Assembly (NCBI GenBank): GCA_043819075.1
Contig: JBDRFE010000002.1
Location: 66,253-130,252 of the forward strand
Direction: 5' to 3'
Source: an archaeon
Lineage (GTDB): Archaea; Iainarchaeota; Iainarchaeia; Iainarchaeales; 1-14-0-10-31-34
Length of the DNA: 64,000 nt
Position numbers and translations under genes: made by a program. This document shows positions 2,647-57,890 of this stretch, one piece after another (the first letter of the stretch is position 1; each line of letters starts with the position of its first letter). The notes beneath the pieces are model-generated. The model searched no databases. It was not told where the DNA came from and saw only the letters and a list, made by a program, of their open reading frames with translations.

Positions 2647-2943
2647 ATGGAAATAGCGGTTGTTGGAACAGATGATTTTGTAACAGGCTTTAGCCTTGCA
2701 GGGGTAAAAAACACTTTTGCAGTGGAAAAAAATTTTGATGAAACAATTTCTTTTGTCCTGGAAAACAAAGAAATTGGAGTCATTGTAGTTGAACAAGAAG
2801 AAATGGATAAAATGAATGTCAAAACAAAAAGAATTTTAGAAAAGCTTATCACTCCGGTTGTAATAACTCTTTCTTCAAAGGGAAAGGAAACGGATTTAAG
2901 GCAATTAATTAAAAGGACGGTTGGTGTGGATTTATGGAAATAG
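2647..2943 (+). CDS. atpF: A-type ATP synthase subunit F
   Basis: [20 protein letters not shown] is the typical subunit-F N-terminus; the ORF-track start at 2623 is probably upstream of the true ATG at 2647. Confidence 0.75.
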
Positions 2944-4677
2944 CAAGAATATACAGAATCTCTGGCCCTGTTGTAATAGCAAAAGGCCTTAATGCAAAAA
3001 TGTTTGATTTAGTCCAAGTAGGCAAAGAAGAATTAATGGGAGAAGTAATCCAGATTGACGGAGACAAAACAACAATACAGGTTTACGAAGAAACATCTGG
3101 CTTAAAGCCCGGAGAACCAGTAAAAAACACCGGCGCACCATTATCAGTTGAATTAGGCCCAGGCATGCTGACCACAATTTATGACGGAATTCAAAGGCCA
3201 TTGCCTGCATTAGTTCAAAAGATGGGCAATTTCATTCAAAGAGGAATAAGTGTTCCAGGCTTAGATAGAAAAAAGAAATGGGATTTCAAGCCAACTGCAA
3301 AAAAAAAATGATTTAGTTGAAGGCGGGGATGTTCTTGGAACAGTTCAGGAAACAAAAAACATTGTTCACAAAATTTTAGTGCCTCCTTTTATTAAAGGAA
3401 AAATAAAAGAAATTAATTCAGGAAACTTTACTGTAACAGACACAATAGCTGTATTAGACAACGGAAAAAAACTTTTTTTAATGCACAAATGGCCTGTCAA
3501 AAAACCCCGTCCATCCAAAGAAAAATTAATGCCTGAAATTCCTTTGGTTACAGGCCAAAGAATTTTAGATTCCTTGTTTCCGATTGCAAAAGGCGGTGCA
3601 GGAAGCATTCCAGGGCCGTTTGGTTCAGGAAAAACTGTTATCCAGCAACAGCTGGCAAAATGGAGTGATGCAGAAATTGTTGTTTACATCGGCTGCGGTG
3701 AAAGAGGAAACGAAATGACTGAAGTTTTAACAGAGTTTCCTGAATTATTGGATGTCAAAACCGGCAGGCCGTTAATGGAGAGAACTGTGTTAATTGCAAA
3801 TACTTCTAACATGCCTGTTGCTGCAAGAGAAGCATCAGTTTACACTGGAATGACAATAGCAGAATATTTTCGAGACCAGGGATTTGATGTAAGCTTAATG
3901 GCTGATTCAACTTCTCGTTGGGCTGAAGCAATGAGAGAAATTTCTTCTAGGTTAGAGGAAATGCCTGGAGAAGAAGGTTATCCTGCTTACCTGGCTGCAA
4001 GATTATCAGAGTTTTATGAAAGAGCAGGCAGAGTAAATGTTTTAGGCCAAAGAAAACAAACTGGTTCTGTTACTGCAATCGGAGCAGTTTCTCCTCCCGG
4101 AGGAGACTTTTCTGAGCCGGTAACACAAAACACTTTAAAAATAACAAAAGTGTTCTGGGCATTGGATGCAAAACTAGCCCAGAGAAGGCATTTTCCTTCA
4201 ATTAACTGGCTTGACTCTTACAGCTTGTATGCAACTCCATTAGAAAACTGGTTTATTGAAAATGTTGCAGAAGACTGGGTTAAAGTCAGAAGGCAGATAA
4301 TGAAAGTTTTGCAGAAAGAAGCTTCTTTACAGGAAATAGTGCAGTTAATTGGTTCTGATGCTTTGCCTGAAAAAGAAAGGCTTACAATGGAAGTTGCAAG
4401 ATTAATTCGAGAAGGCTTTTTACAGCAGAATGCATTTCATGAAGTTGACTCTTATTGTAGTATGAAAAAACAATACGGCATCTTGAAAGGAATTATTTCT
4501 TTTTCAGAGCAGGCTGAAACAGCAGTTGATGTTGGAATTCCAGTTGAAAGTATTATTGGCATGGAATCAAAGTCAAAGCTGACAAAAATTTGTTTAGTTA
4601 AAGAAGAAAATTTTGAAAAAGAAATGAATAAAATAATGAATGAAATGAAGGAGGACTTCAAAAACATTGCAAAATAA
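2934..4677 (+). CDS. atpA: A-type ATP synthase catalytic subunit A, split by a +1 frameshift inside an A10 run (3299-3308); the N-terminal part is 2934-3311, the remainder is in frame +1 from about 3310
   Basis: The N-terminal ORF ([18 protein letters not shown]...) and the downstream ORF ([15 protein letters not shown]...[11 protein letters not shown]-loop...) are contiguous A-subunit sequence; deleting one A restores a single ~580-aa frame. Confidence 0.85.
3299..3308 (+). other. A10 homopolymer at the atpA frameshift site
   Basis: gcaaaaaaaaaatga: the stop at 3309-3311 arises only in the 10-A form; 9 As read through as ...[16 protein letters not shown]. Confidence 0.7.
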
Positions 4678-4709
4678 TTTTGCAATGCTGTCATTTAAGG
4701 GGTGTAGAA

Positions 4710-7700
4710 ATGAAGGAATACAAAACAATTGAAAGAATTGCCGGACCATTAATTTTTGTGAAAAAAACTGACCCAATTGGCTACGGAGAATTAGTTAAAA
4801 TAAAATTATCTGACGGAACAATAAAAAACGGCCAGGTGTTGGATACTTCAGATGACTTAGTTGTAGCACAGGTATTTGAAGGAACATCTTCTATTGACAG
4901 GCAGTCTTCAGTGAAATTCACCGGAGACACAATTAAATTAAAGGTTTCAAAAGACTTGCTTGGAAGAGTTTTATCCGGCTTAGGTGAGCCAATTGATTCT
5001 GGGCCAGAAATTATTCCTGACAAAGAATTAGATGTTGTCGGAGCAGCAATTAATCCTTTTGCAAGAAGCTCTCCAAAAGATTTTGTCCAAACAGGATTAT
5101 CAACAATTGATGCAATGAATACTTTGGTTAAAGGCCAAAAGCTTCCGATTTTTTCCGGTTCAGGTTTGCCTCACAATGACATTGCATTACAGATTGCAAG
5201 GCAGGCAAAAGTTGAAGGAAACTTTGCTGTTGTGTTTGCTGCAATGGGAATAACAAATGAAGAAGCCCAGCAGTTCCAAAGAGACTTTGAAAGAACCGGT
5301 GCACTAGAAAGAACAATAATGTTTTTGAATTTAGCTAACGACCCAGCAATTGAAAGGCTTATTACTCCGAGAATGGCTTTAACTGCAGCAGAATATTTGG
5401 CTTACACTCACGACATGCATGTTCTTGTAATTCTCACAGACATGACAAACTATTGTGTTGAAGGAAAAACTGAAATCTTTCTTAATGACGGGGAAATAAT
5501 CAACATTAAAGACTTTGTTGAATCCCAAACAAAAGGTTCTGATGTTGACATTAGGAGTAAAAATAAGTCTCTTGTTACATGGGATGGCAAAACCCATTCA
5601 ATTAAACAAATTGCAAGAGTGCAAAAACTTCCTTCTACTCAAGAGATGATTGAAGTTATAACCCGTTCAGGAAACAAGTTAACCGCTACCCCAAATCACA
5701 GAATATTATCTGATACGATTTACGGTTTAAGAATGACCAGACTTGATCAACTCAATAAAGGAAGCAAACTATGTTCTGCATCAAAAATCGACGTACAAGA
5801 AAGTGTTCCATCAGTTATAGAACTCATTGATAATAAAACAGCAGTCTTTATGGACAAAAATGTGTTGAACAAAGCCAAGCTCAAGTTAAAGAAAAAATAT
5901 GGTTCACTAATAAAAGCATGCAAAGAATTAGAAATTAATTATTCAAGAGTTACTGATTCAGAGTCTTTCCTGCAAGCAAGTGAACTTAAAAAAATCTCAA
6001 AAGATTTATCAATTGAATTAGTGAGTAGCATTAAAGCTTTATCTAATGTTGGGGGAAAAAGATTTGAAGTTTCTTTTGTTTATCCAAATAAAGAGCTGAT
6101 GTATTGTATGGGATTAGTTGCATCAGACGGTTCAGTAATTCAAAATAAAAAGAAACATATAAGAAGAGTTGATTTTTCAAACAAAAACATTCAGTTAATA
6201 AGCAATTATACTGAAAAAATGAAAAAACTGTTTCCAAACATCAACATAAAAGTATTCAAAAATCAAAACGATGTCAGTATTGCAAGAATTGAAAGCAAAC
6301 CTTTATTTGAAATGGCAAAATCTTTTGGTTTAGCAGAAAAAGATTTCAAACCAATTTTTAAACTTCCTGAAACTCTTATTGCTTCTTTCTTAAAAGGTTA
6401 CTTTGATGGGGACGGAAGCTGTAATATAAATTCAAAACTAATTAAATACACGGCAAAAGAAGAAATAGTTGTTAAAAGACTTAGACAACTTCTAAAAAGA
6501 TTGGGTATTTCTGCCACTACAATAAAACGAAAAAGTGAATCAAGTTACGGAAATTCTTTTGTATGTGATGTTGTTATTAGAGGAAGCACTTTTGTAACAA
6601 AGTTTATTGAAAGAATAGGTTCAGATCATCCTGCTAAAATGAGATTGCTTTCTATTTTAGGGAAAAAGAAAAAAAGAAGAGCTGAATTTGAACACGCTCC
6701 AAGAATATGCGGCAACCTATTAAGATTAATAAGACAGAAATACAAGATAAAACAAACAGAACTAACCAACAGTGGAAGTTTTTCAGAGATTGAAAGAGGT
6801 TTAAAAACTGTAAGTAAAGCCGAAGTTAGAAAGTATATTGCAAAACTTGATAACGTAGTTCCATTAAATGAAGAACTATTAGTTGAATTAAAAAAGCTCA
6901 CTTCAGACAACTTTATCTTAGATCAAATAATTTCAATCAAAAAATTGCCTGCAAACAACCTCTTTGTTTTTGATGTAACGGTTCCGGAAACAGGCAAGTT
7001 TTTAGTTGACACTGGCCTGATAATTTCTAATTGTGAGGCTTTAAGGGAAATTGGTGCTGCAAGAGAAGAAGTTCCTGGAAGAAGAGGTTATCCTGGTTAT
7101 ATGTACACTGACTTGGCTTCAATTTACGAAAGAGCCGGCTTGATTAAAGGAAAAAAGGGTTCAGTAACACAGATTCCAATCCTGACAATGCCAGGCGACG
7201 ATATAACTCACCCAATACCTGATTTAACTGGTTATATTACTGAAGGTCAAATCGTTTTAGGAAGAGAACTGCATATGAAAGGAGTTTATCCTCCGATTGA
7301 TGTTCTTCCATGCCTTTCACGTTTAATGAATGCAGGAATAGGCAAAAAAAACACTAGAGAAGACCATAAAGCTGTTTCAAACCAGTTGTATGCAGCTTAT
7401 GCTGAAGGCCGTTCTTTAAGGGGATTAGTTGCAATTGTAGGAGAAGAAGCCTTAAGCGAAAGAGACAGAAAGTTTTTGAAGTTTGCAGAAGAATTTGAGC
7501 AAAAATTTATTTCACAAGACAAATACGAGAACAGGACAATTTTTGAGTCACTGAATTTAGGCTGGGATTTATTGTCTGCTTTGCCTGCAACAGAATTAAC
7601 AAGAATTGATGATGAGTTAATCGCAAAATACTTGGATAAAAACAAGAGACCAGCGGAAAAAACGCCAGAGGCAAAACTTGACACTTCAAAAGAAATTTCT

Positions 7701-7802
7701 GCTCCAAAAGAAACAAAACTGATTGCAGGAAAAAACAATTCAGGAAACAAGACCAGCAAAAATAATTCAAAAAACGGAAAAAACAAAAAGAAAAAAAAGT
7801 GA
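4710..7802 (+). CDS. atpB: A-type ATP synthase subunit B containing a 526-aa intein; the host protein has an unusual ~60-aa Lys/Asn-rich C-terminal tail
   Basis: Extein sequence is contiguous across the insertion (...[11 protein letters not shown] | [29 protein letters not shown]...); the ATG at 4710 is preceded by an AGGGGTG RBS (the ORF track starts at an upstream TTG at 4680). Confidence 0.9.
5454..7031 (+). mobile_element. Intein with LAGLIDADG homing-endonuclease domain inserted in atpB
   Basis: Begins with Cys ([14 protein letters not shown]), ends ...GLIISN followed by the +1 Cys of the C-extein; LAGLIDADG-like blocks [12 protein letters not shown] and [12 protein letters not shown]; in frame with the host. 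Confidence 0.85.
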
Positions 7803-12031: not shown

Positions 12032-12891
12032 TGAAAAAAAAAGTTTTAGTAATCGGTGCAAGCGGTTTTCTTGGAACAGCTTTAATGCAAGAGCTTTCAA
12101 AAAAATTCAATGTTATTGGCACTTTTTTTGGGGAAAAAAAGCAGGGCTTGATTGAATTAGACTTAAATAATTCAGTTCAGCTGGATTCAGTCCTGAACTC
12201 TGTTTTCCCTGAATTAATTGTTTTGGCCGCAGCAGAAACAGATGTTGATGCATATGAATTAAAACCTGAAATTTCAAGAAACCAGATTATTTCAGCAAAA
12301 AAAATAGTTGAATACTGTAAAGAAAAAAATTGTTTTCTTGTTTTCATTTCAACTGACGCAGTATTTGACGGAAAAAAAGGAAACTATAATGAAACAGACG
12401 CCCCTAATCCAATCTGTGAATACGGCAGAAACAAATTATCCCTAGAAAAAATAATTTCATCACTGAAAAATTATTTGATTTTAAGAACTTCTGTTCTTTA
12501 TGGTTTGCCTCTTTCTCCTGACAAGTTTATTGGAGGAACAATTCTAAAGCTTTTAAAAAAAGAAAAAGTTTTTGTCGCAGAAGACTGGAAGAGAACTCCA
12601 ACTCTTACAACAGATCTTGCCAAAGCTTTAATTAATTTAACAGAAAAAAACCAAAAAGGATTATTTCATGCTGCAGGAAATTCAAGCCTTTCCTCTTATG
12701 AAACTGCTCTGGCAATAGCAGAGAAATTTAATGTTCCTTCATCTTTAATAGAAAAAATAAAAGGAGATGAATTAAAGCTTCCTGCAAAAAGGCCATTGGA
12801 TTCTTCTCTGAATATTTCCAAGCTTTTGTCTCTTGGAATCAGGATGAGTTCTTTTGAAGAAGGGCTTGAATTCATTCACTCTAATCTTTAG
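12031..12891 (+). CDS. dTDP-4-dehydrorhamnose reductase-like NAD(P)-dependent sugar reductase (RmlD family)
   Basis: [14 protein letters not shown] Rossmann motif, YGRNK catalytic Tyr-x3-Lys, ~286 aa. Confidence 0.65.
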
Positions 12892-15488
12892 TCTTCTATT
12901 CCGTTTTCTGTTACCCTGTAAACTGCTTCTCCGTCTGGAAGTGATGGGCTGTCAACTAATTTTGCAACTCTTTTCTCTGCTTTTGCTTTTCTTAGATACA
13001 ATCTAGTTTTGCTGTTGTGTACTATGAAACCATTTGCAATGTAATTTTCTGTTTCTGGGACACTGATGTCATATAGTGGCAGGTTGTTTTTCTGCTTTTT
13101 AATGCTTGTAACTTTCCCGAAAGAAATTTCTCTGTTCTGAATTGCTTCCATTAATGCTATTTTTTCTTTGTGTTGTTCAGGAATTTCTTTGCTTTTTATT
13201 GTGTTCAAAATCATTTTTAGTTCATGCATACCAATGTATTTGTAGTTTCTAGATTGAATTACCTTGCTTGGATATTTAACTAATTCTTTTAAGAAGCCCC
13301 AAACAACTTTTCTTTCAATTGGAACAGTAACTTTTGCCCTGTTTTCGCTGAATTCTTTTATCCATTTATCAAGTTTTTTTCTTTTATCTGGAGCACTGAC
13401 GCTAATTTCCCTTCCATATTTCACCACATCTTCACTGAATATTTCTAAAGATTGAAATTCTTTTGCTCCGTATTTCAGAATCCTAGATTTTATTCCAAAC
13501 CTTAGCAACAGCATTTGAATTATTTGCAGTATTTCCTTGTCTTTTTGTCCGATACTAATCCTTCTAATGCTTTTGTCAATATGCCCTTCTGCATCAACAA
13601 ATCCTTTAATGAATGCTTTGACAACAGGTTTTGGCGACTGTGTGATTAATGGGATATAATTTTTTTTAATGTAAGAAAACAATTCCCTTATTTCTTTACT
13701 GTTCACACTTAACTGCCAGCAATTTTTGTCTTTAACTTTAGAAAATTTTCCCTCCATATTAAAGACGCTTTTGAACAGTTTTTCATAAGTCTCCAGAACT
13801 TCTTTTCTTGCATCTTTAAACCTTAAACTTCTTTGCTCAAGATTTCCATCACCTAAAAAATAACCAGTCGTTTGTGCAAGTTCTTCAGAGAATGTTTCCG
13901 GAACAGTTAATGGTCTGTGCCTGTAATTTAAAGCAGGTTGTGTTTCTTCTATTATTTCTTCTGCAATTCCTTCATCAAACCCTAAACCAAAAATGCTGTT
14001 CATGTTTTCCATTGAAATTGGTCTGCTTTCATTCAAAGATCTTCTTAAAGACCTTTTATCAAAAGGCATTTCTTCACAAAACTGTTCTCTGGTAAAACCC
14101 CTGTTTTTAATAGTGTTTTTTATTAGTTCAGCGCCTTTCTTGTTGACAATCAAGAATTCTTTTAATTGCATTTTCGGAATTTCTTGTTCACTACTTTCAA
14201 TTTCTATTTTTCCTGCCTGCAACAAGTAGTCATTTTTCTTGATATCTTTTGCTTTTACTTCCCTGACTTCAAATCCATTTAACTTAAAGAATTTGTGGTT
14301 TGGAGAAGCGTTAATTTGATGCCCTGTATCAATTAAATAGCTTTCTTTTATGTCATCTCTTTTTGATTTGCATGAAACAACTGAAACTTTTCCTTTTAAT
14401 TCCTTAAAGTCGGTTGAACAAACAGTTTTTTCTGCGAACTCTTTTATTTTGGTGATCTGCCCATTGCCTGTTTGAATTAATGTATTTGGGTCAAGACAGG
14501 CGTGCCCAACCACATGGCCTCCAATTGGCGCAGTGGGGTCGCCGAATAAAATGTCTGGCCTGGACATTACCTGGTTTGTAACCAGCAAAGCAATGTTGTT
14601 CATTTCAGCTAATTTCATTAAAGTATGCATGTGCTTGTTTAGTTTTTGCTGCCTTCCTGCAAGAGTTCCTCGGCCAATGAATTCTGCCCTGAATTGAGAT
14701 GTTAAGGAATCAACTATTACCAGCTTGATGTTATTGCTTTTAATCATGTCTTCTGCTTTGTCAGCCAAAACCATTTGGTGGTCTGAGTTAAAGGCTCTTG
14801 CAACAAAAATGTTTTTCAAAACTTTTTTTTCATCTAAGCCAAAATGTTTTGCAATGCTTATCACTCTTTCTGGCCTGAAAGAATTCTCTGAATCAATGTA
14901 TAAAACATTTCCATTCAAGCCTCCTTTTTCTTTTGGCAGCTGGGTTGTAACGCATAACTGAAAACACCATTGGGTTTTTCCTGACGCATACTGGCCGTAC
15001 ACTTCTGTAATGCTTTGGGTTTCAATTCCTCCGCCGATTAAGTCATCTAATTCTTTTGAGCCAGTGGTAATTCTTCCGATAATAAGCCTTCTTTCCTGTA
15101 TTTTGTCTGCTGTCTCGTAACCCATTTCAAGTGATTCTCTTGCAGCATTAATTGCTTTTGTTGCAGTTATTTCGCCTAAACCAGCGGCTTCCATTAATTC
15201 TGCTGGAGAAGCAACAGCAATGTTTTCCATTGTCTTGTATCCTGCGCCGATTAATTTTTCAGCTGAAGTTGTTCCAACCCCGGGCAAATCTGAAATGCTT
15301 TTGTATTTTTTTCCTCTGGATTTTTTTTCTTCTGGTTCAGTTGTTTCTTCTTCTGAAGAATCAGTTATTTCTTGTGTTTTGTTTGTTGTTTCTTCAATTG
15401 CTTCTGTTTCTGTTGTGGTTTTGTTTTTCGCCATGATTTCATCTCCTGCATCAAGTTTTTTCAGGCTGTTGTTCTCGGCTGAACTCAC
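12888..15488 (-). CDS. radA: DNA repair and recombination protein RadA, containing a 495-aa intein; acidic/Thr-rich N-terminal extension
   Basis: HhH domain ([18 protein letters not shown]), Walker A (GQYASGKTQ), ...[10 protein letters not shown] | intein | [23 protein letters not shown]...; an alternative start at ATG 15434 (MAKNK...) is possible. Confidence 0.9.
13014..14498 (-). mobile_element. Intein with LAGLIDADG homing endonuclease inserted in radA
   Basis: Starts [13 protein letters not shown], ends ...NGFIVHN followed by the Ser +1 of the C-extein; LAGLIDADG-like blocks [11 protein letters not shown] and [11 protein letters not shown]. Confidence 0.85.
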
Positions 15489-33036: not shown

Positions 33037-33354
33037 TTATTTTCTTTTAATGCTTATTTCTCTTTTTGCTGACAACTGCTCTAACAGTTTTTTGAGTTCT
33101 TTTTCCTGGACTTTTCCCTGCACTTTTCCTGTCTTATAAAGGTAGATAAGGCTTTGTGCTGCCTTCAAATATAATTCCCTGTTAACCAGCCTTACATTTG
33201 ACAGCCTTGCTCTTGCTTCTTCTGCCAGAACAAGCTTCATTGCAGAGTCAATCTGGTTCTCTAATTCAATCTGCCTTTCCTGCTGTTTTATTTCTTCAGA
33301 ATACCTTTCTTTCAGCTCATTTGCTTTTTTTTCCTTTATCTCTTCTGGGTTCAT
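33037..33354 (-). CDS. PDCD5/TFAR19-like double-stranded DNA-binding protein
   Basis: LAEEARARLSNVRLVNRELYLKAAQSLIYL matches the dsDNA-binding-domain family; conserved position between rps19e and rpl39e; the ORF track extends to 33417, a probable ATG is at 33354. Confidence 0.6.
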   Translation of the reverse strand: MNPEEIKEKKANELKERYSEEIKQQERQIELENQIDSAMKLVLAEEARARLSNVRLVNRELYLKAAQSLIYLYKTGKVQGKVQEKELKKLLEQLSAKREISIKRK

Positions 33355-33874
33355 CTTTTTCTTTCCCTTTTTCTTTCTCTTTTGCCGGTTCCTGTGAAAC
33401 AGCTTTTTCTTTTGCAAGAGTCAAATTTTTTTTCTTTTCTGTTTTTGGATGTTCTCTTAAGTAAGCTAAAACGTTTTTAGAGCTCTTATTAAGCAATACA
33501 ATTCCTTTTGTTGTAACAGTTCTTCCTTTTTTTTCTTTTTTTATTAATCCTTCTTTTTCTAGTGCCTGCAGGCAGTTCCTGATTATTTTTCCGCCTGCTT
33601 TAACATGCTTGTGTGGTTTTACTTTCCTGTTTTTTCTTCCGCCATAATAGCTTCTCAAGGATTCTGTTCCCACTGGCCCGTCAAAGTAAATTTTCCTTAA
33701 AATTGAAGCCATTCTGATGTAATACCAGTCTTCTTGTGATGGGCTTCTTTCCCTGTGGGCGCCTGTCTTAACAAAGTCAACATATTCAGGCTGAACTATG
33801 TTCTTGTTTTGCCTTAATTCTTTGGCTATTTCTTGTATTAATTCTGTTCCTGGCACGTCAAATGCTGTGGTCAT
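33317..33874 (-). CDS. rps19e: 30S ribosomal protein S19e with a Lys-rich C-terminal tail
   Basis: VDFVKTGAHRERSPSQEDWYYIRMASILRKIYFDGPVG is the S19e signature. Confidence 0.85.
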   Translation of the reverse strand: MTTAFDVPGTELIQEIAKELRQNKNIVQPEYVDFVKTGAHRERSPSQEDWYYIRMASILRKIYFDGPVGTESLRSYYGGRKNRKVKPHKHVKAGGKIIRNCLQALEKEGLIKKEKKGRTVTTKGIVLLNKSSKNVLAYLREHPKTEKKKNLTLAKEKAVSQEPAKEKEKGKEKDEPRRDKGKKSK

Positions 33875-33979: not shown

Positions 33980-34471
33980 TTATTCCTTGCGTTTTTGGGC
34001 TGTTTTTTCAAGCAGTTTTTTTTCAACTGTTTCTGGCACGAACTCTTTTACCCTGCCTTTCAGTGAAACAATTTCTTTTATAAGAGTGGAGTTAATGTAA
34101 AAGTATTTTGGCTCTGTCATTAAAAAAACTGTTTCAATGTTTTCATTCAAGCCTTTATTGACTGTTGACTGCTGGAATTCGTATTCAAAATCGCTTATTG
34201 CCCTTAACCCTCTGATAACAAACCTGTAATTTTTTTGTTTCATGTACTCTGCAAGCAATCCATGCAATACTTCAATTTTAATGTTCTTTTTTTTGCTGAA
34301 CAGCTCTTCAAGCATTTGCTTTCTTTCTTCTAAAGAAAACCAGTTTTTTTTTCTCTTGTTTTCTGCAACCAATACAATTACTTCATCAAACAGTTTTTCT
34401 GCCCTAGAAATTATGTCCATGTGCCCGAATGTAACTGGGTCAAAGCTTCCTGCATAAATCCCTGTTTTCAT
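33980..34471 (-). CDS. coaD: Phosphopantetheine adenylyltransferase, bacterial CoaD type
   Basis: GIYAGSFDPVTFGHMDIISRA closely matches bacterial CoaD ([20 protein letters not shown]). Confidence 0.85.
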   Translation of the reverse strand: MKTGIYAGSFDPVTFGHMDIISRAEKLFDEVIVLVAENKRKKNWFSLEERKQMLEELFSKKKNIKIEVLHGLLAEYMKQKNYRFVIRGLRAISDFEYEFQQSTVNKGLNENIETVFLMTEPKYFYINSTLIKEIVSLKGRVKEFVPETVEKKLLEKTAQKRKE

Positions 34472-35355
34472 TTAATTTCGCCTTTAATTTTATTGCTTAA
34501 ATCATTAATTTTTTCCTGCAATTCCTTTAAAGTTCCATTGTTTTCAACCAAAAAATCGGCTTTCTTTTTTTTCCTTCCTGCAGGCAGCTGGTTTTTTAAT
34601 CTCTTTAAAACCTCTTCTTTTTGCATTCCAAGCTTTTCTTTTCTTTCAATCATTTTATCTTTTTTTGAATAAATCACTAAGATCTTGTCGCATAAATCCT
34701 GCATTCCTGATTCAAACAATAAAGGAATTTCTATTGCAACAAGTTTTTCTCCTCTGGCTTCTTCTTCAAGTTTTTTTCTCACTAAAGGATGAATTAACTC
34801 ATTTAATTCAGCTAATTTTTTCCTGTTATTAAAAACAATTTTTGCGATTTTCTGGAATTCAATTCCATGTTTTGAAACAGCTTCTATTCCAATTATTTCT
34901 TTTAACTCTTCTTTTACTTTCAGCATTTCTTTTTTGGCTATTGTATCTGCATTCAATGCTTTGAAGCCGTTTGATTCAAATTCTTTTAATACAGTGCTTT
35001 TTCCTGTTCCAATGCTTCCAGTAATGCCTAACACAATGCATTCCTTTTTTTTCTCCGGAAAAACTTTTTTTATTTTCCCGCAGTTTTTGCATTTAACCAG
35101 CAAAACCTTGTTTTTTATTCTCACTTCTTTGTCTTTGCTTTCAAGCAATAAAGAAAAACATTTTTTGCAGTAAAGTTTTTTCAGTTCTTTTGGAATTTTT
35201 ACTTTATTCCTCATCCCGATTTTTTTCATTAACTTTAAGTAATCCAAACTTCTTTCAGGATGTTTTTCCCATTCAATTAAAGCAAGGTCCATTAGCCTGT
35301 ACATTCTCTGCAATGCAATGTCTTCAATGAACTTCCTGTTATTTTTTTGCTTCAT
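34468..35355 (-). CDS. Fusion protein: N-terminal RNase P subunit Rpp21/Rpr2 zinc-ribbon domain plus C-terminal dephospho-CoA kinase (bacterial CoaE type)
   Basis: Residues ~1-105: KVKIPKELKKLYCKKCFSLLL...VKCKNCGKI aligns with archaeal Rpp21 ([23 protein letters not shown]...CLECGH); residues ~110-295: VLGITGSIGTGKSTV P-loop and CoaE-like lid; a single uninterrupted 295-aa frame. Confidence 0.7.
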   Translation of the reverse strand: MKQKNNRKFIEDIALQRMYRLMDLALIEWEKHPERSLDYLKLMKKIGMRNKVKIPKELKKLYCKKCFSLLLESKDKEVRIKNKVLLVKCKNCGKIKKVFPEKKKECIVLGITGSIGTGKSTVLKEFESNGFKALNADTIAKKEMLKVKEELKEIIGIEAVSKHGIEFQKIAKIVFNNRKKLAELNELIHPLVRKKLEEEARGEKLVAIEIPLLFESGMQDLCDKILVIYSKKDKMIERKEKLGMQKEEVLKRLKNQLPAGRKKKKADFLVENNGTLKELQEKINDLSNKIKGEIK

Positions 35356-35444
35356 AAAAGAATTAGTGGTTTAATTACTATAAATTAATAACCTATGCAA
35401 AGCATAGGTTGACATTTTTCGGCACTCACGCTCGAAAGCGTGAA

Positions 35445-35515
35445 TGCGCCCACCGGGAATCGAACCCGGACATTGAGCTTGGAAGGCTCACGTCATACCA
35501 CTAGACTATGGACGC
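35445..35515 (-). tRNA. tRNA-Gly (anticodon TCC)
   Basis: GCGTCCATAGTCTAGTGGTATGACGTGAGCCTTCCAAGCTCAATGTCCGGGTTCGATTCCCGGTGGGCGCA: 7-bp acceptor stem, TTCGATT T-loop, anticodon loop CTTCCAA. Confidence 0.9.
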
Positions 35516-35650
35516 AAACGTTTCGCCGTTTGAGCACGAAGCACTATCTTCGCTTTTGGCTCGATAGAGCTTGCACGGCTTTATGCCGTGCTTCGTACCG
35601 CACAGCCGAAACTGTGCCGAGCTTGCTTCGCCAATTGTGCAGACTAATTA
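35516..35650 (-). repeat. GC-rich hairpin element (copy B), immediately 5' of tRNA-Gly(TCC)
   Basis: ~50 nt nearly identical to copy A (AGCACGGCATAAAGCCGTGCAAGCTCTATCGAGCCAAAAGCGAAGATAGTGC); ~58% GC. Confidence 0.6.
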
Positions 35651-35779
35651 CTGTAATAAAAAGTTATTAAACTTTATTTTTTTTGTTTAACACAGAAATA
35701 CTGTTTTAGTCAGCACAAATTAATAACCAATTACAAAGTAATTGGTTGATGTTTTTCGTTTCTCGCGGGCGAAACCGCG

Positions 35780-35925
35780 ATGCGAAGCACATACGGCTTT
35801 ATGCCGCAGCCGTCACGTTCGGCTGGTGTACGCGTACCACGTAAAGTGGTGCTAGCACGGCTTTATGCCGTGCGCCGTCACACTCGCACGGAAGCGAGTC
35901 GGTGCTCGCGCTCGAAGCGCGACGA
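35780..35925 (-). repeat. GC-rich hairpin element (copy C), immediately 3' of tRNA-Gly(GCC)
   Basis: ~95% identical over ~150 nt to the element 3' of tRNA-Arg (copy D), apart from a 56-nt indel. Confidence 0.65.
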
Positions 35926-36145
35926 TGCGACTGCCGGGAATCGAACCCGAGTCCGAAGCTTACTGCACAACTTTTTTAAAAGTTGTATCAAAATGTACGG
36001 CATAAAGCCGTACTGTACTAAAACAATAAGTTTTTGCAAAGCAAAAACCGTTTTTGTTAAACCTTTTTTTGAAAAAGGTTTTTTTGATCAAACTTTTGGA
36101 AAAGTTTGTTGGCAAGCTCCAATTCTACCACTGAACCACAGTCGC
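35926..36145 (-). tRNA. tRNA-Gly (anticodon GCC) interrupted by a ~149-nt intron in the anticodon loop (canonical 37/38 region; intron about 35961-36109)
   Basis: 5' exon GCGACTGTGGTTCAGTGGTAGAATTGGAGCTTGCCA, 3' exon AGCTTCGGACTCGGGTTCGATTCCCGGCAGTCGCA: perfect 7-bp acceptor pairing, GTTC/GAAT D-stem, GGAGC/GCTTC anticodon stem; the intron is AT-rich with palindromic hairpins including GTACGGCATAAAGCCGTAC. Confidence 0.8.
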
Positions 36146-36336
36146 GTAAATAATGATTGAATAGAAATAGTTTTTAAAACTGGGGTTTTTCATCAAATTT
36201 AACCCATTTGTTTTTGCTTGGCTCTAAAGAGATTTTAGAGCATGAAGGGCACTGCCATACTTCAACTTCTTCTTCCCCTCTATGCTCTGTTCTCTGAAGC
36301 AACATTATTGAGCCGCATCTAAGGCATTTCATGCAA

Positions 36337-36594
36337 TCAACTGTTTTTCTGGCATGTCTGCCCTATCTGGCATTTTTCGTGGCATTCAATCCAGTCGCAG
36401 TCTAATTCTCCTGCCTGAATTTGCTGGTCGCAGTTGTTTGCGCATTGCTTTGATATTGCTTTTTGCTTTTGCTGTTCGTCTAAAACTGCTTTTCCTGTTG
36501 TCTGTGCATTGTTTACGCTCCAAAAAACAGCTATGATTAAAACAAAAAACACTACTCCTGCAAAAATCACTGCTCTATACATATTATTCACCAT
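36337..36594 (-). CDS. Small membrane-anchored Cys-rich protein (hypothetical)
   Basis: N-terminal TM helix, 6 Cys in the C-terminal 40 aa (CANNCDQQ...CDWIECHEKCQIGQTC). Confidence 0.35.
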   Translation of the reverse strand: MVNNMYRAVIFAGVVFFVLIIAVFWSVNNAQTTGKAVLDEQQKQKAISKQCANNCDQQIQAGELDCDWIECHEKCQIGQTCQKNS

Positions 36595-36733
36595 TAAACC
36601 CTCCTAAAAGAAAGTAAATAAATAATATTATTCAATGTATTTAATGCTTTTGTTCTGCCTTTTTGAGAAAAAGGCAAGTTGCCAAAAACCATTTTTGCCT
36701 GCGGCAAAAATCAGTTTTACAAAAATTATTTAA

Positions 36734-36805
36734 TTGGGCTCGGGCGGAATCGAACCGCCAGTCTCGACCGTGTAAGGGTCGCATCATACCACTAGACCAC
36801 GAGCC
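36734..36805 (-). tRNA. tRNA-Val (anticodon TAC)
   Basis: GGGCTCGTGGTCTAGTGGTATGATGCGACCCTTACACGGTCGAGACTGGCGGTTCGATTCCGCCCGAGCCCA: perfect acceptor stem, anticodon loop CTTACAC. Confidence 0.85.
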
Positions 36806-36927
36806 CCGCCTTTTCCAAAAGGCAGGTTGCAACTTAATTCCAAAAAGGAATTAAGTGCACACTAAAACCAAAAGTTTTAGTGGTGCCAAAACGCACGGCG
36901 TAAACCCGTGCTGGCACTGTTTTTTAT

Positions 36928-46674: not shown

Positions 46675-47016
46675 ATGAAATGCTTTCTTAAATCAAAAAT
46701 CCACAGGGCAACAGTAACTGAAGCAAACTTAAATTACATTGGAAGCATTTCAATTGACTCTGCTTTAATGCAGAAAGCAGGAATAGAGGAATTTGAAAAA
46801 GTTTTAGTTTGCAATATAAACAACGGGGAAAGAATTGAAACTTATGCAGTAAAGGCTGAAGCGGATTCAGGGACAATCTGCCTGAACGGGGCAGCAGCAA
46901 GAAAATTCCTTGCAGGGGATTTGGTGATAATCCTTGCATTTGAATATTCAGACAAGCCAGTCAAGCCAAAAATAGTTTTAGTGAATGAAAAAAACGCGTT
47001 TGCTGAATTCCTGTGA
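46675..47016 (+). CDS. panD: Aspartate 1-decarboxylase, pyruvoyl-dependent bacterial PanD type
   Basis: SKIHRATVTEANLNYIGSISID (Gly-Ser self-cleavage site), ICLNGAAAR, GDLVII: close match to bacterial PanD. Confidence 0.85.
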   Translation: MKCFLKSKIHRATVTEANLNYIGSISIDSALMQKAGIEEFEKVLVCNINNGERIETYAVKAEADSGTICLNGAAARKFLAGDLVIILAFEYSDKPVKPKIVLVNEKNAFAEFL

Positions 47017-57639: not shown

Positions 57640-57890
57640 TTCGCGCTTTCGAGCGCGAGCACCGACTCGCTTCCGTGCGAGTGTGACGGCGCACGGCTTT
57701 CAGCCGAGCATGCTTCGCTTTCGCGGTTCCGTCCGCGAGCAACGGAGCACGGCATAAAGCCGTGCTAGCACCACTTTACGTGGTGCGCGTACACCAGCCG
57801 AACGTGACGGCTGCGGCATAAAGCCGTATGTGCTTCGCTTTCGTGATTTCGCTTGCGGGTGTAGAGCGATATATCAAGTTATTTCGTTTC
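57640..57890 (+). repeat. GC-rich hairpin element (copy D) immediately 3' of tRNA-Arg
   Basis: ~250 nt at ~58% GC; homologous to copy C (3' of tRNA-Gly-GCC) with a 56-nt indel flanked by a GCACGGC direct repeat; hairpins GCGC-TTTCGA-GCGC, GCACGGC-ATAAA-GCCGTGC, CAGCCG-AACGTGA-CGGCTG. Confidence 0.65.

What the first reader, a model, noticed from the sequence alone, without database searches (positions are those of the whole stretch)
34468..35355. Gene fusion of RNase P protein subunit Rpp21 with dephospho-CoA kinase, within a bacterial-type CoA biosynthesis gene set
A single 295-aa frame encodes an N-terminal Rpp21/Rpr2 zinc-ribbon domain and a C-terminal bacterial-type CoaE kinase. The Rpp21 domain (KVKIPKELKKLYCKKCFSLLL...CKNCGKI) aligns well with archaeal Rpp21. 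The CoaE part has the GITGSIGTGKST P-loop and lid. The gene overlaps a bacterial-type coaD (33980-34471) by 4 nt. A bacterial pyruvoyl-type panD lies at 46675-47016. Archaea normally use non-orthologous PPAT, DPCK and aspartate decarboxylase (MfnA-like) enzymes, so this looks like horizontal acquisition of the bacterial CoA terminal steps. The fusion to an RNase P subunit is something I have not seen described. It could be a moonlighting or regulatory link. It could also be a way to retain Rpp21 in a reduced genome.
Basis: partly seen in the sequence, partly recalled or inferred. Interest (0 to 1): 0.65.

Follow-up and report, generated by a model that had tools for sequence, protein, structure and literature searches.

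The report
RNase P subunit fused to CoA kinase
A small group of tiny archaea (Iainarchaeota) makes a single protein joining a tRNA-processing (RNase P) subunit to a bacterial-type enzyme for the last step of coenzyme A synthesis; the fusion is real, old and undescribed, but most likely arose because the two genes became neighbours, not because the two functions are linked.

Summary
ORF 34468-35355 (-) encodes 295 aa. Residues 1-100 are a complete Rpp21/Rpr2 module (Pfam 49.6 bits, GA 29.3). Residues 108-285 are a bacterial-type dephospho-CoA kinase (TIGR00152 122 bits, cut-off 65.6). Predicted folds match both: P. horikoshii Rpp21 (TM 0.85) and bacterial DPCKs (TM 0.84-0.86).

It is not an assembly artefact. 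The same architecture occurs in about 22 protein clusters from independent assemblies, down to ~41-45% identity, all DPANN archaea labelled Iainarchaeum/Diapherotrites. Synteny is conserved. Both halves are under purifying selection, and no conserved internal start codon exists at the junction.

rpp21 sits at its ancestral place in front of the S19e-L31e-eIF6 cluster. The kinase's nearest free relatives lie in bacterial operons. So a bacterial coaE (usually with coaD, coupled by an ATGA overlap) landed behind rpp21 and the stop codon was lost, once.

The most likely function is two independent jobs in one chain, with the foreign kinase using rpp21's expression signals. A real functional coupling between RNase P and CoA is not excluded.

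I could not test whether this is the only rpp21 or DPCK in these genomes, nor either activity. I found no paper describing the fusion.

The parts
34468..35355 (-). rpp21::coaE fusion gene (295 aa)
   Evidence: ORF. Pfam Rpr2 + CoaE. NCBIfam. 100% identical protein P0001 in NCBI, named only 'dephospho-CoA kinase'.
35056..35355 (-). Rpp21 module, residues 1-100: two long helices (7-29, 33-50) plus a zinc ribbon. Zn ligands are C63 (35167-35169), C66 (35158-35160), C89 (35089-35091) and C92 (35080-35082).
   Evidence: Aligns end to end with solved Rpp21 structures 2k3r, 6k0a and 1x0t (E about 1e-9 to 1e-8). The four Cys are invariant in 15 family members. AF2 and Foldseek: 2zae_B TM 0.85, rmsd 1.8 A. 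Coordinates.
35035..35061 (-). Short Lys-rich linker and junction (residues 99-107, FPEKKKECI)
   Evidence: No stop and no conserved start. The V108 codon is GTG in 3 genes and GTT in 5 of the 8 compared. pLDDT about 88.
34468..35034 (-). Bacterial-type dephospho-CoA kinase domain (residues 108-295). P-loop GSIGTGKS at 34996-35019; conserved Asp137 at 34945-34947.
   Evidence: Pfam CoaE 116 bits, TIGR00152 122 bits. Full-length alignment to 1uf9 (E 1.7e-28), 2if2 and 2grj. Foldseek TM 0.84-0.86 to bacterial DPCKs.
33980..34471 (-). Bacterial-type coaD (phosphopantetheine adenylyltransferase), start overlapping the fusion's stop (ATGA)
   Evidence: TIGR01510 196 bits. The overlap is conserved in the window, L006, L007 and L008; L013 has TTGA.
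33317..33874 (-). Ribosomal protein S19e, first gene of the conserved cluster S19e / PDCD5-like / L31e / eIF6 / LX / prefoldin / FtsY / SRP54 that continues leftwards to about 28000
   Evidence: Synteny with the Pfam-annotated loci L001, L003, L013, L015 and L096. The window ORF sequence matches the L096 S19e.
35444..35516 (-). tRNA-Gly(TCC), 88 nt upstream of the fusion's ATG. It is the last gene of a conserved tRNA cluster.
   Evidence: ARAGORN and Rfam. The same tRNA lies 33-335 nt upstream of the fusion in L001, L007, L008 and L003.
46675..47016 (+). panD (pyruvoyl-type aspartate 1-decarboxylase). Same pathway, not physically linked to the fusion.
   Evidence: PF02261. A YIGS motif at the expected self-cleavage site can be read from the sequence.

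Best explanation
The gene is a genuine, single-origin translational fusion found in a clade of Iainarchaeota (Diapherotrites, DPANN).

**What it is.** The N-terminal 100 residues are the organism's RNase P protein subunit Rpp21. The C-terminal 190 residues are a dephospho-CoA kinase of bacterial ancestry.

**How it arose (inferred from gene order).** rpp21 sat at its ancestral place directly upstream of the S19e ribosomal-protein cluster. A bacterial coaE, in most lineages together with coaD, was inserted right behind it. The rpp21 stop codon was then lost.

**How it is made (shown).** The kinase now has no start codon of its own and is made only as part of the Rpp21 polypeptide. In most members coaD is translationally coupled to it through an ATGA overlap.

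**How it works (inferred).** The two halves do their two original, unrelated jobs. The helical and zinc-ribbon module pairs with Rpp29 and binds the specificity domain of RNase P RNA. The kinase phosphorylates dephospho-CoA made by CoaD. The benefit of the fusion would be expression: a foreign gene uses the promoter and initiation codon of an essential housekeeping gene. The C-terminus of Rpp21 appears tolerant of appended domains.
For: **The fusion is real and old.**
- About 22 clusters from independent assemblies carry both Pfam domains. The core group is 64-100% identical to the window protein; the divergent members are about 41-45% identical.
- All fusions form one clade in a CoaE NJ tree: bootstrap 40/60 for all members, 60/60 for the core.
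- Synteny is conserved across the clade.

**Both halves are functional.**
- dN/dS is 0.05-0.37 for the Rpp21 half and 0.13-0.50 for the CoaE half.
- The Zn ligands are invariant.
- The residues Samanta et al. 2016 list as critical in Pfu RPP21 are present as A14, Q/E16, R17, L21, A25, Y39, R79, G93 and K97.
- The P-loop and Asp137 are invariant.
- The AF2 model has pLDDT 95.4 with both folds recognised.

**The fusion is obligate.** There is no conserved internal start codon.

**rpp21 is at its ancestral locus.** The closest free Rpp21 (P0123) lies just upstream of S19e. The literature states that rpp21 precedes yhbY and ribosomal protein genes (PMC4919917).

**coaE is of bacterial origin.**
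- The nearest free homologues (41-45% identity) lie in rpoA-rplQ and polA-fpg-coaE-dnaB contexts.
- It scores 122 bits on the bacterial equivalog, against 24 bits on PRK08356, which I take (unverified) to be the archaeal CoaE-like model.

**The C-terminus of Rpp21 is permissive.** Other Rpr2 proteins carry C-terminal CRM/YhbY, GAF, DUF1122 or LplA-C-like domains.

**The fusion is not a general property of coaE loci.** None of 80 other coaE loci has an Rpr2 neighbour.
Against: - No experiment or transcript data were available.
- I could not show that the fused copy is the only rpp21 or the only DPCK in any genome. I also could not show that Rpp29, Pop5, Rpp30 or RNase P RNA exist in these genomes; none lies in the window or in 116 kb of related loci.
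- Long retention of a 22-kDa appendage on a subunit of a compact RNP, with a short conserved linker and a fairly confident relative domain placement (pTM 0.76), could also mean the association is itself selected.
- In one sub-lineage (L096) coaD is not adjacent, so a simple 'cassette' insertion is not the whole history.
- No unfused rpp21-coaE intermediate was found.
- dS is near saturation, so the dN/dS values are rough.
Confidence: 0.62

Rival explanations
1. Functional coupling. The kinase domain is an integral part of the RNase P holoenzyme in these archaea. It either links tRNA 5' maturation to ATP/CoA status (allosteric regulation by dephospho-CoA, CoA or nucleotide), or it serves as an added structural or RNA-handling subunit.
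For: - The fusion has been kept across a clade whose members have diverged to about 41-45% identity, with no conserved internal start, so all kinase molecules are tethered to Rpp21.
- The linker is short and conserved, and the model has pTM 0.76.
- The gene sits directly downstream of a conserved tRNA gene cluster.
- The fusion persists where coaD is no longer adjacent.
Against: - There is no known biochemical link between DPCK and RNase P.
- The architecture is explained by gene adjacency.
- Rpr2 is fused to several unrelated domains elsewhere.
- The kinase keeps all CoaE hallmarks and is usually translationally coupled to coaD, as expected for a plain pathway enzyme.
Confidence: 0.15
2. The Rpp21 module no longer works in RNase P. 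It survives as a zinc-ribbon N-terminal tag for the kinase (folding, oligomerisation or generic RNA binding), while RNase P uses another Rpp21 copy or none.
For: - Some archaea (Thermoproteaceae) lack Rpp21 altogether (PMC4919917).
- DPANN genomes are reduced.
- Whether the fused copy is the only one was not tested.
- The NCBIfam RNase P component 4 equivalog cut-off is not reached (49.7 vs 162 bits).
Against: - Residues specific to the Rpp29 interface (A14, E16/R17, L21, A25, Y39) and the basic RNA-facing residues (R79, K97) are conserved, not just the zinc ligands.
- dN/dS of this half is at least as low as that of the kinase.
- The gene is at the ancestral rpp21 locus, where relatives have their free rpp21.
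Confidence: 0.1
3. The C-terminal domain is CoaE-like but is not a dephospho-CoA kinase, as with T. kodakarensis TK1334 and TK2192. It would phosphorylate another substrate.
For: Shimosaka et al. 2019 showed that archaeal homologues of bacterial DPCK can lack DPCK activity (PMC6650551).
Against: - It scores 122 bits on the DPCK equivalog TIGR00152 (cut-off 65.6) but only 24 bits on PRK08356, which I take (unverified) to be the archaeal CoaE-like model.
- It is 35-45% identical to bona fide bacterial CoaE over the full length.
- It is translationally coupled to a bacterial-type coaD.
Confidence: 0.08
4. Sequencing or assembly artefact: two adjacent genes joined by a frameshift or a lost stop codon in this one assembly.
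For: None beyond the general possibility in MAGs.
Against: - The same uninterrupted frame is present in about 22 clusters from different projects and assemblers.
- Eight junction sequences were compared at the DNA level, and none had a stop.
Confidence: 0.01

Closest known systems
Archaeal RNase P protein Rpp21 (P. furiosus PF1613 / P. horikoshii PH1601 / M. jannaschii; PDB 2KI7, 1X0T, 2ZAE, 6K0A)
   Same: - Residues 1-100 align over the whole length.
- Same two-helix plus zinc-ribbon fold (TM 0.82-0.85).
- Same CxxC...CxxC ligands and the same Rpp29-interface and basic residues.
- Same genomic neighbourhood, upstream of ribosomal protein genes.
   Different: - It carries a 190-residue kinase on its C-terminus instead of ending about 10-25 residues after the second CxxC.
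- The loop before the second CxxC is 3 residues shorter.
Bacterial dephospho-CoA kinase CoaE (e.g. T. thermophilus TT1252 1UF9, A. aeolicus 2IF2, E. coli 1VHL)
   Same: Full-length homology (E 1.7e-28), P-loop, conserved Asp and fold (TM 0.84-0.86). Genetic coupling to the rest of the pathway, here coaD.
   Different: It has no start codon of its own and is encoded in an archaeon as the C-terminal half of an RNase P subunit.
Pathway-internal CoA fusions: eukaryotic CoA synthase (PPAT-DPCK, e.g. 2F6R) and archaeal PPAT-arCOG04076 fusions (Shimosaka 2019)
   Same: A DPCK domain is expressed as part of a larger polypeptide.
   Different: Those fusions join consecutive enzymes of one pathway. Here the partner is an RNA-processing subunit with no known relation to CoA. 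The archaeal arCOG04076 DPCK is also non-homologous to CoaE.
Other Rpr2-domain fusions seen in the protein library (Rpr2-CRM/YhbY P0183; Rpr2-GAF P0214; Rpr2-DUF1122 P0208; Rpr2-LplA-C-like P0182, P0196, P0236)
   Same: An N-terminal Rpr2 domain with a C-terminal added domain. The YhbY case involves the gene reported to lie immediately downstream of rpp21, which suggests the same stop-loss route.
   Different: The partners differ, and none is a bacterial-derived metabolic enzyme. Their contexts were not examined here.

Membership tests
Rpp21 / Rpr2 (PF04032; RNase P protein component 4) | Profile match above the curated threshold | tested here: met
   Pfam Rpr2 49.6 bits against GA 29.3, covering positions 1-90 of the 90-position model. 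The stricter NCBIfam equivalog PRK03954 is matched (E 3.4e-13) but stays below its cut-off of 162 bits.
Rpp21 / Rpr2 (PF04032; RNase P protein component 4) | Four zinc-ligand cysteines, C-x2-C ... C-x2-C | tested here: met
   C63, C66, C89 and C92 are invariant in 15 fusion sequences and present in the divergent members P0121, P0122 and P0124.
Rpp21 / Rpr2 (PF04032; RNase P protein component 4) | Conserved Rpp29-interface and RNA-facing residues (Pfu A14, E16, R17, L21, A25, Y39, R79, R100; Samanta 2016) | tested here: met
   The window protein has A14, Q16 (E in most members), R17, L21, A25, Y39, R79 and K97 (Lys for Arg, a substitution the paper calls frequent).
Rpp21 / Rpr2 (PF04032; RNase P protein component 4) | Two-helix plus zinc-ribbon fold | tested here: met
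   AF2 pLDDT 95. Foldseek hits: 2zae_B TM 0.85 with rmsd 1.8 A, 1x0t TM 0.82 with rmsd 1.3 A.
Rpp21 / Rpr2 (PF04032; RNase P protein component 4) | Physical association with Rpp29 and RNase P RNA, and stimulation of pre-tRNA cleavage | not testable with these tools
   Needs biochemistry. RNase P RNA and the other subunits are not in the window or the related loci.
Dephospho-CoA kinase CoaE (PF01121 / TIGR00152) | Profile match above the curated threshold over the full domain | tested here: met
   PF01121 116.4 bits (GA 27), covering positions 2-180 of the 180-position model. TIGR00152 122.2 bits (cut-off 65.55).
Dephospho-CoA kinase CoaE (PF01121 / TIGR00152) | Walker A P-loop GxxxxGK[ST] and the conserved Asp after strand 2 | tested here: met
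   G113-S120 (GSIGTGKS) and D137 are invariant in the family. D137 aligns with Asp in 1uf9. The catalytic role of this Asp is from my own knowledge of CoaE structures.
Dephospho-CoA kinase CoaE (PF01121 / TIGR00152) | DPCK fold | tested here: met
   Foldseek hits: 1uf9 TM 0.84, 4i1u TM 0.86, 1jjv TM 0.83.
Dephospho-CoA kinase CoaE (PF01121 / TIGR00152) | [quoted passage not shown] | not testable with these tools
   Caveat: some archaeal CoaE homologues lack this activity (PMC6650551).
Archaeal GTP-dependent DPCK (arCOG04076, TK1697 family) | Homology to TK1697 / DUF359 | tested here: not met
   No such family appears among the Pfam or NCBIfam hits of the fusion protein. The family is non-homologous to CoaE.
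Archaeal CoaE-like proteins without DPCK activity (arCOG01045, TK1334/TK2192) | Best match to the archaeal CoaE-like model rather than to bacterial CoaE | tested here: not met
   NF006226/PRK08356 scores only 24 bits (cut-off 189) against 122 bits for TIGR00152. That PRK08356 represents this arCOG is my assumption.
Bacterial-type PPAT CoaD (TIGR01510), for the neighbouring gene | Profile match above cut-off and better than the archaeal PPAT model | tested here: met
   TIGR01510 196 bits (cut-off 103.3). Archaeal-type PRK00777 19.3 bits (cut-off 104).

The most novel reading that the evidence does not exclude
In Iainarchaeota the RNase P holoenzyme physically carries an active P-loop kinase. 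This kinase would couple tRNA 5' maturation to the cell's CoA/ATP state, or act as a new lineage-specific structural or RNA-modifying subunit. The fusion would then be selected for the association itself, not just for expression.
Probability: 0.12. Interest if true: 0.8.

Novelty: new variant of a known kind. Interest (0 to 1): 0.45.

Why it matters
- **A possible RNase P first.** If the fused copy is the only Rpp21, every RNase P particle in these archaea carries a 22-kDa metabolic kinase. To my knowledge, and in the literature searched here, no archaeal RNase P protein has been reported joined to an enzyme. That would give a natural test of how much extra mass the Rpp21-Rpp29 side of the RNP tolerates.
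- **An example of how a foreign gene is domesticated.** The case shows how a horizontally acquired bacterial gene can settle in a DPANN archaeon. It lands behind an essential housekeeping gene, loses its own start, and uses the host gene's expression signals.
- **CoA pathway in DPANN.** It indicates that this DPANN clade replaced or supplemented the archaeal terminal CoA steps with bacterial ones.
- **Annotation.** Public annotation names these proteins only 'dephospho-CoA kinase'. Surveys that count RNase P subunits by gene name will therefore score these genomes as lacking Rpp21.

Tried and rejected
- **Internal translation start for a free CoaE: rejected.** The window has an AGGA...GTG at V108, but the codon is GTT in 5 of 8 genes.
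- **Assembly artefact: rejected** by recurrence in independent assemblies.
None of the 80 loci has an Rpr2 neighbour, so it was useful only as a negative control.
- **Genome scan with the Rpp21 half: limited.** It returned only the 4 species-representative genomes that carry the fusion. It was not sensitive enough to reveal a second, divergent rpp21.
- **yhbY between the free rpp21 and S19e in the closest relative (L012): not found.** The 76-aa ORF there has no Pfam match.
- **RNase P RNA: no hit** in the window at gathering or E<=0.1 thresholds, nor in 116 kb of related loci.
- **Other CoA genes or RNase P proteins in the window: none found** among the ORFs scanned.
- **Exact-protein look-ups** for P0001 and for the window's RadA returned nothing.
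- **Literature: no match.** Searches for Rpp21 + dephospho-CoA kinase and for Rpr2 + CoaE found nothing. Neither did the archaeal fusion catalogue PMC11237513 (including its supplements) or the DPANN protein-family paper PMC8204110.
Full report
**1. Observation**

The window holds a 295-aa ATG-initiated ORF at 34468-35355 on the minus strand.

- Pfam places an Rpr2/Rpp21 domain at residues 17-93 (49.6 bits, gathering score 29.3). It places a CoaE domain at residues 108-278 (116.4 bits, gathering score 27).
- NCBIfam agrees for the kinase: TIGR00152, the dephospho-CoA kinase equivalog, scores 122.2 bits against a cut-off of 65.55.
- 'RNase P protein component 4' (PRK03954) matches residues 3-97 with E 3.4e-13. 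Its 49.7 bits are below that model's strict cut-off of 162.
- The next gene, 33980-34471 (-), is a bacterial-type CoaD. TIGR01510 scores 196 bits, while the archaeal-type PPAT model scores 19 bits. Its ATG overlaps the fusion's TGA (ATGA).
- ORF 46675-47016 (+) is a PanD, PF02261.

**2. Both halves are complete, by sequence and by fold**

The Rpp21 half:
- The first 100 residues align end to end with the solved archaeal Rpp21 proteins: 2k3r/2ki7 E 4e-9, 6k0a E 5e-9, 1x0t E 2e-8. They also align, more weakly, with yeast Rpr2.
- In that alignment the numbering coincides with P. furiosus RPP21. This allows a direct check of the residues Samanta et al. 2016 (PMC4919917) single out.
- Zinc ligands: C63, C66, C89 and C92.
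- Rpp29 interface: A14, Q16 (Glu in most family members), R17, L21, A25 and Y39.
- Basic surface: R79 and K97.
- All are present, and most are invariant in the family alignment.

The kinase half:
- It aligns over its full length with bacterial DPCK structures: 1uf9 E 1.7e-28, plus 2if2 and 2grj.
- It keeps the P-loop (GSIGTGKS) and Asp137.

The predicted structure:
- The AlphaFold2 model was built on an 86-sequence mixed alignment. It is confident (mean pLDDT 95.4, pTM 0.76).
- It has two long helices and a three-stranded zinc ribbon, followed after a roughly 9-residue Lys-rich linker by the kinase fold.
- Foldseek against the PDB returns bacterial DPCKs for the C-terminal half (TM 0.84-0.86). 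It returns P. horikoshii Rpp21 for the N-terminal half (2zae_B TM 0.85, rmsd 1.8 A).

**3. Not an artefact; a conserved clade-specific architecture**

- A search of 5.8 billion proteins found 16 clusters at 90% identity with both Pfam domains. They are 64-100% identical to the window protein and come from NCBI, JGI, ENA and Logan assemblies. After them, identity drops abruptly to 41% in single-domain CoaE proteins.
- An exhaustive HMMER search with the Rpp21 half alone found three more representatives of about 295 aa: P0121, P0122 and P0124. These also carry both domains and are 41-45% identical to the window protein.
- A profile search added P0270-P0272.
- Named sources are 'Candidatus Iainarchaeum archaeon', 'Candidatus Diapherotrites archaeon', one 'Micrarchaeota'-labelled MAG and unclassified archaea. 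All are DPANN; Iainarchaeota belongs to the kingdom Nanobdellati.
- Eight genes were compared at the DNA level. The junction is open in all of them.
- The only candidate internal start, the codon for V108, is GTG in three genes and GTT in five. The kinase therefore cannot be translated on its own in most members.
- Nei-Gojobori estimates give dN/dS of 0.05-0.37 for the Rpp21 half and 0.13-0.50 for the kinase half. Synonymous sites are close to saturation. Both halves are under purifying selection, the Rpp21 half at least as strongly.
- In an NJ tree of the kinase domain with 45 bacterial homologues, all fusions form one clade: bootstrap 40/60 overall, 60/60 for the core group.

**4. Genomic context and origin**

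- The window is ordinary archaeal chromosome. It contains an A-type ATPase operon, RadA, RPA, GGGP synthase, RtcA, CCA-adding enzyme, DnaG, Hjc, NurA and Rad50.
- The local order is conserved in every related locus: DnaG, small ORFs, a tRNA cluster, then rpp21::coaE, coaD, S19e, a PDCD5-like protein, L31e, eIF6, LX, prefoldin, FtsY and SRP54.
- The literature places archaeal rpp21 immediately before yhbY and ribosomal protein genes.
- The closest free Rpp21 in the library (P0123, 106 aa) lies just upstream of S19e on its contig.
- So rpp21 has not moved. The kinase came to it.
- The kinase's nearest free relatives sit in unmistakably bacterial contexts: rpsD-rpoA-rplQ, and the Firmicutes-like polA-nitroreductase-fpg-coaE-dnaB/dnaI order.
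- coaD is coupled by an ATGA overlap in the window, L006, L007 and L008, and by TTGA in L013. It is separated by short gaps in L001, L003 and L015.
- In the sub-lineage represented by L096 there is no coaD between the fusion and S19e.
- The simplest history is one insertion of bacterial coaE (with or soon joined by coaD) behind rpp21, loss of the rpp21 stop codon, and later local rearrangements.
- I did not find an unfused intermediate. The metagenome scan designed for that was swamped by generic bacterial coaE, and none of its 80 loci had an Rpr2 neighbour.

**5. How it most likely works**

Shown:
- One polypeptide carries a complete, constrained Rpp21 module and a complete, constrained CoaE module.
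- There is no independent start for the kinase.
- coaD is usually translationally coupled.

Inferred:
- The Rpp21 module still pairs with Rpp29 on the specificity domain of RNase P RNA.
- The kinase performs the last step of CoA synthesis.
- The two activities are independent.

The likely advantage of the fusion is expression. A foreign gene inserted behind an essential, constitutively expressed gene acquires its promoter and initiation codon.

Rpp21's C-terminus appears permissive. Other Rpr2 proteins in the library carry C-terminal CRM/YhbY, GAF, DUF1122 or LplA-C-like domains. YhbY is the gene reported to lie immediately downstream of rpp21 in archaea, which points to the same stop-loss route.

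I rate this explanation at about 0.6.

**6. Rivals**

- **True functional coupling, with the kinase as part of RNase P (about 0.15).** It is not excluded. All kinase molecules are tethered, the linker is short and conserved, and the fusion outlives coaD adjacency. There is no positive evidence for it.
- **Rpp21 module retired from RNase P and kept as a tag (about 0.1).** The conserved Rpp29-interface residues and the ancestral locus argue against it. It cannot be closed without whole genomes.
- **CoaE-like domain that is not a DPCK (about 0.08).** Shimosaka et al. 2019 showed such cases in Thermococcus. Here, however, the equivalog score, the identity to bacterial enzymes and the coaD coupling all point to a real DPCK.
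- **Artefact.** Effectively refuted.

**7. Comparison with what is known, and novelty**

- Each half is an ordinary member of a well-known family. The combination is new in the literature I could search. No paper holds both Rpp21 and dephospho-CoA kinase, or both Rpr2 and CoaE.
- The 2024 catalogue of archaeal fusion families does not list it in the text or supplements.
- The 2016 survey of archaeal RNase P proteins does not mention fusions.
- Public records name the protein only 'dephospho-CoA kinase'.
- Known DPCK fusions join consecutive pathway enzymes: eukaryotic PPAT-DPCK, and archaeal PPAT-arCOG04076. This one does not.
- I class it as a new variant of known kinds (a new domain architecture), of moderate interest.

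**8. Limits**

- The window and 116 kb of related loci contain no RNase P RNA and no other RNase P protein. That is expected for such small samples and says nothing about the genomes.
- Whether the fused copy is the only rpp21 and the only DPCK was not testable here. Nor were the two activities, or the steric fit of the kinase on the holoenzyme.

Noticed in passing
window 35780-35927 (-), 35530-35665 (-), 57640-57860 (+): A GC-rich (53-63%) structured element of about 150-200 nt is repeated next to tRNA genes. The copy immediately 3' of the intron-containing tRNA and the copy 3' of tRNA-Arg(TCG) are near-identical apart from a ~56-nt insertion. A partial copy precedes tRNA-Gly(TCC). The element carries the hairpin CGGCATAAAGCCG: 6 exact copies against 0.02 expected. 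Region 35517-35930 folds with z = -7.25. No Rfam family matches. Its nature is unknown; it could be a tRNA-linked small RNA, a processing signal or a miniature mobile element.
   Followed up: partly
window 35926-36145 (-): An intron-containing tRNA gene missed by default ARAGORN and by Rfam's tRNA model (only a weak tmRNA hit). The intron is about 130-150 nt and itself contains one copy of the hairpin above, in the opposite orientation. ARAGORN's intron mode calls it Cys(ACA) with an odd arm. My manual reading is Gly(GCC) with an intron at the canonical 37/38 position, consistent with a tRNA-Gly(GCC) at the equivalent place in L013.
   Followed up: partly
window 35444-36806 (-); L001 8903-9966; L003 8054-9920; L007 6614-7666; L013 3137-6033; L096 6307-9234: A cluster of three tRNA genes (Val-TAC, an intron-containing tRNA, Gly) is conserved directly upstream of the RNase P subunit fusion gene, on the same strand, across the whole clade. 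The gap from tRNA-Gly(TCC) to the fusion's ATG is 88 nt in the window and 33 nt in L001. So the promoter must be very compact, or the mRNA is co-transcribed with the tRNA and released by tRNA processing.
   Followed up: partly
proteins P0183, P0214, P0208, P0182, P0196, P0236 (not in the window): Other archaeal Rpr2/Rpp21 proteins carry C-terminal added domains: CRM/YhbY (53 bits), GAF (37 bits), DUF1122 (98 bits) and a LplA C-terminal-like domain (three representatives, only one above Pfam's cut-off). P0168 has a ~120-residue N-terminal extension without a Pfam match.
   Followed up: no
L013 7477-8004, L015 940-1464; L011 4695-5201: In the divergent fusion lineages a TM1586-type nitroreductase gene abuts the 5' end of rpp21::coaE. 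A nitroreductase of the same Pfam families also lies two genes upstream of coaE in the bacterial locus holding one of the kinase's closest free relatives (polA-nitroreductase-fpg-coaE). This is possibly a coincidence, possibly a trace of the transferred fragment.
   Followed up: no
window 4680-7802 (+) and 12888-15488 (-): Two inteins with LAGLIDADG homing-endonuclease domains. One is in an A/B-type ATPase catalytic-family subunit (1040 aa), the other in RadA (866 aa).
   Followed up: no
window 2934-3311 (+) and 3379-4677 (+): The other large A-type ATPase subunit appears split into two ORFs: a 125-aa N-terminal beta-barrel domain and a 432-aa remainder starting within the barrel-sandwich domain. 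They are separated by 67 nt. This could be a frameshift or sequencing error, a genuinely split gene, or an unrecognised insertion.
   Followed up: no
L096 10891-11546: In the Diapherotrites MAG with the 581-kb contig, the fusion is followed directly by S19e with no coaD between them. That S19e gene was not called in the source annotation.
   Followed up: partly
window 33317-33874 (-): S19e is 185 aa and ends in a long Lys/Glu-rich tail. The L012 homologue is called at 254 aa and the L013 homologue at 235 aa. C-terminal extensions of ribosomal proteins seem common in this lineage.
   Followed up: no
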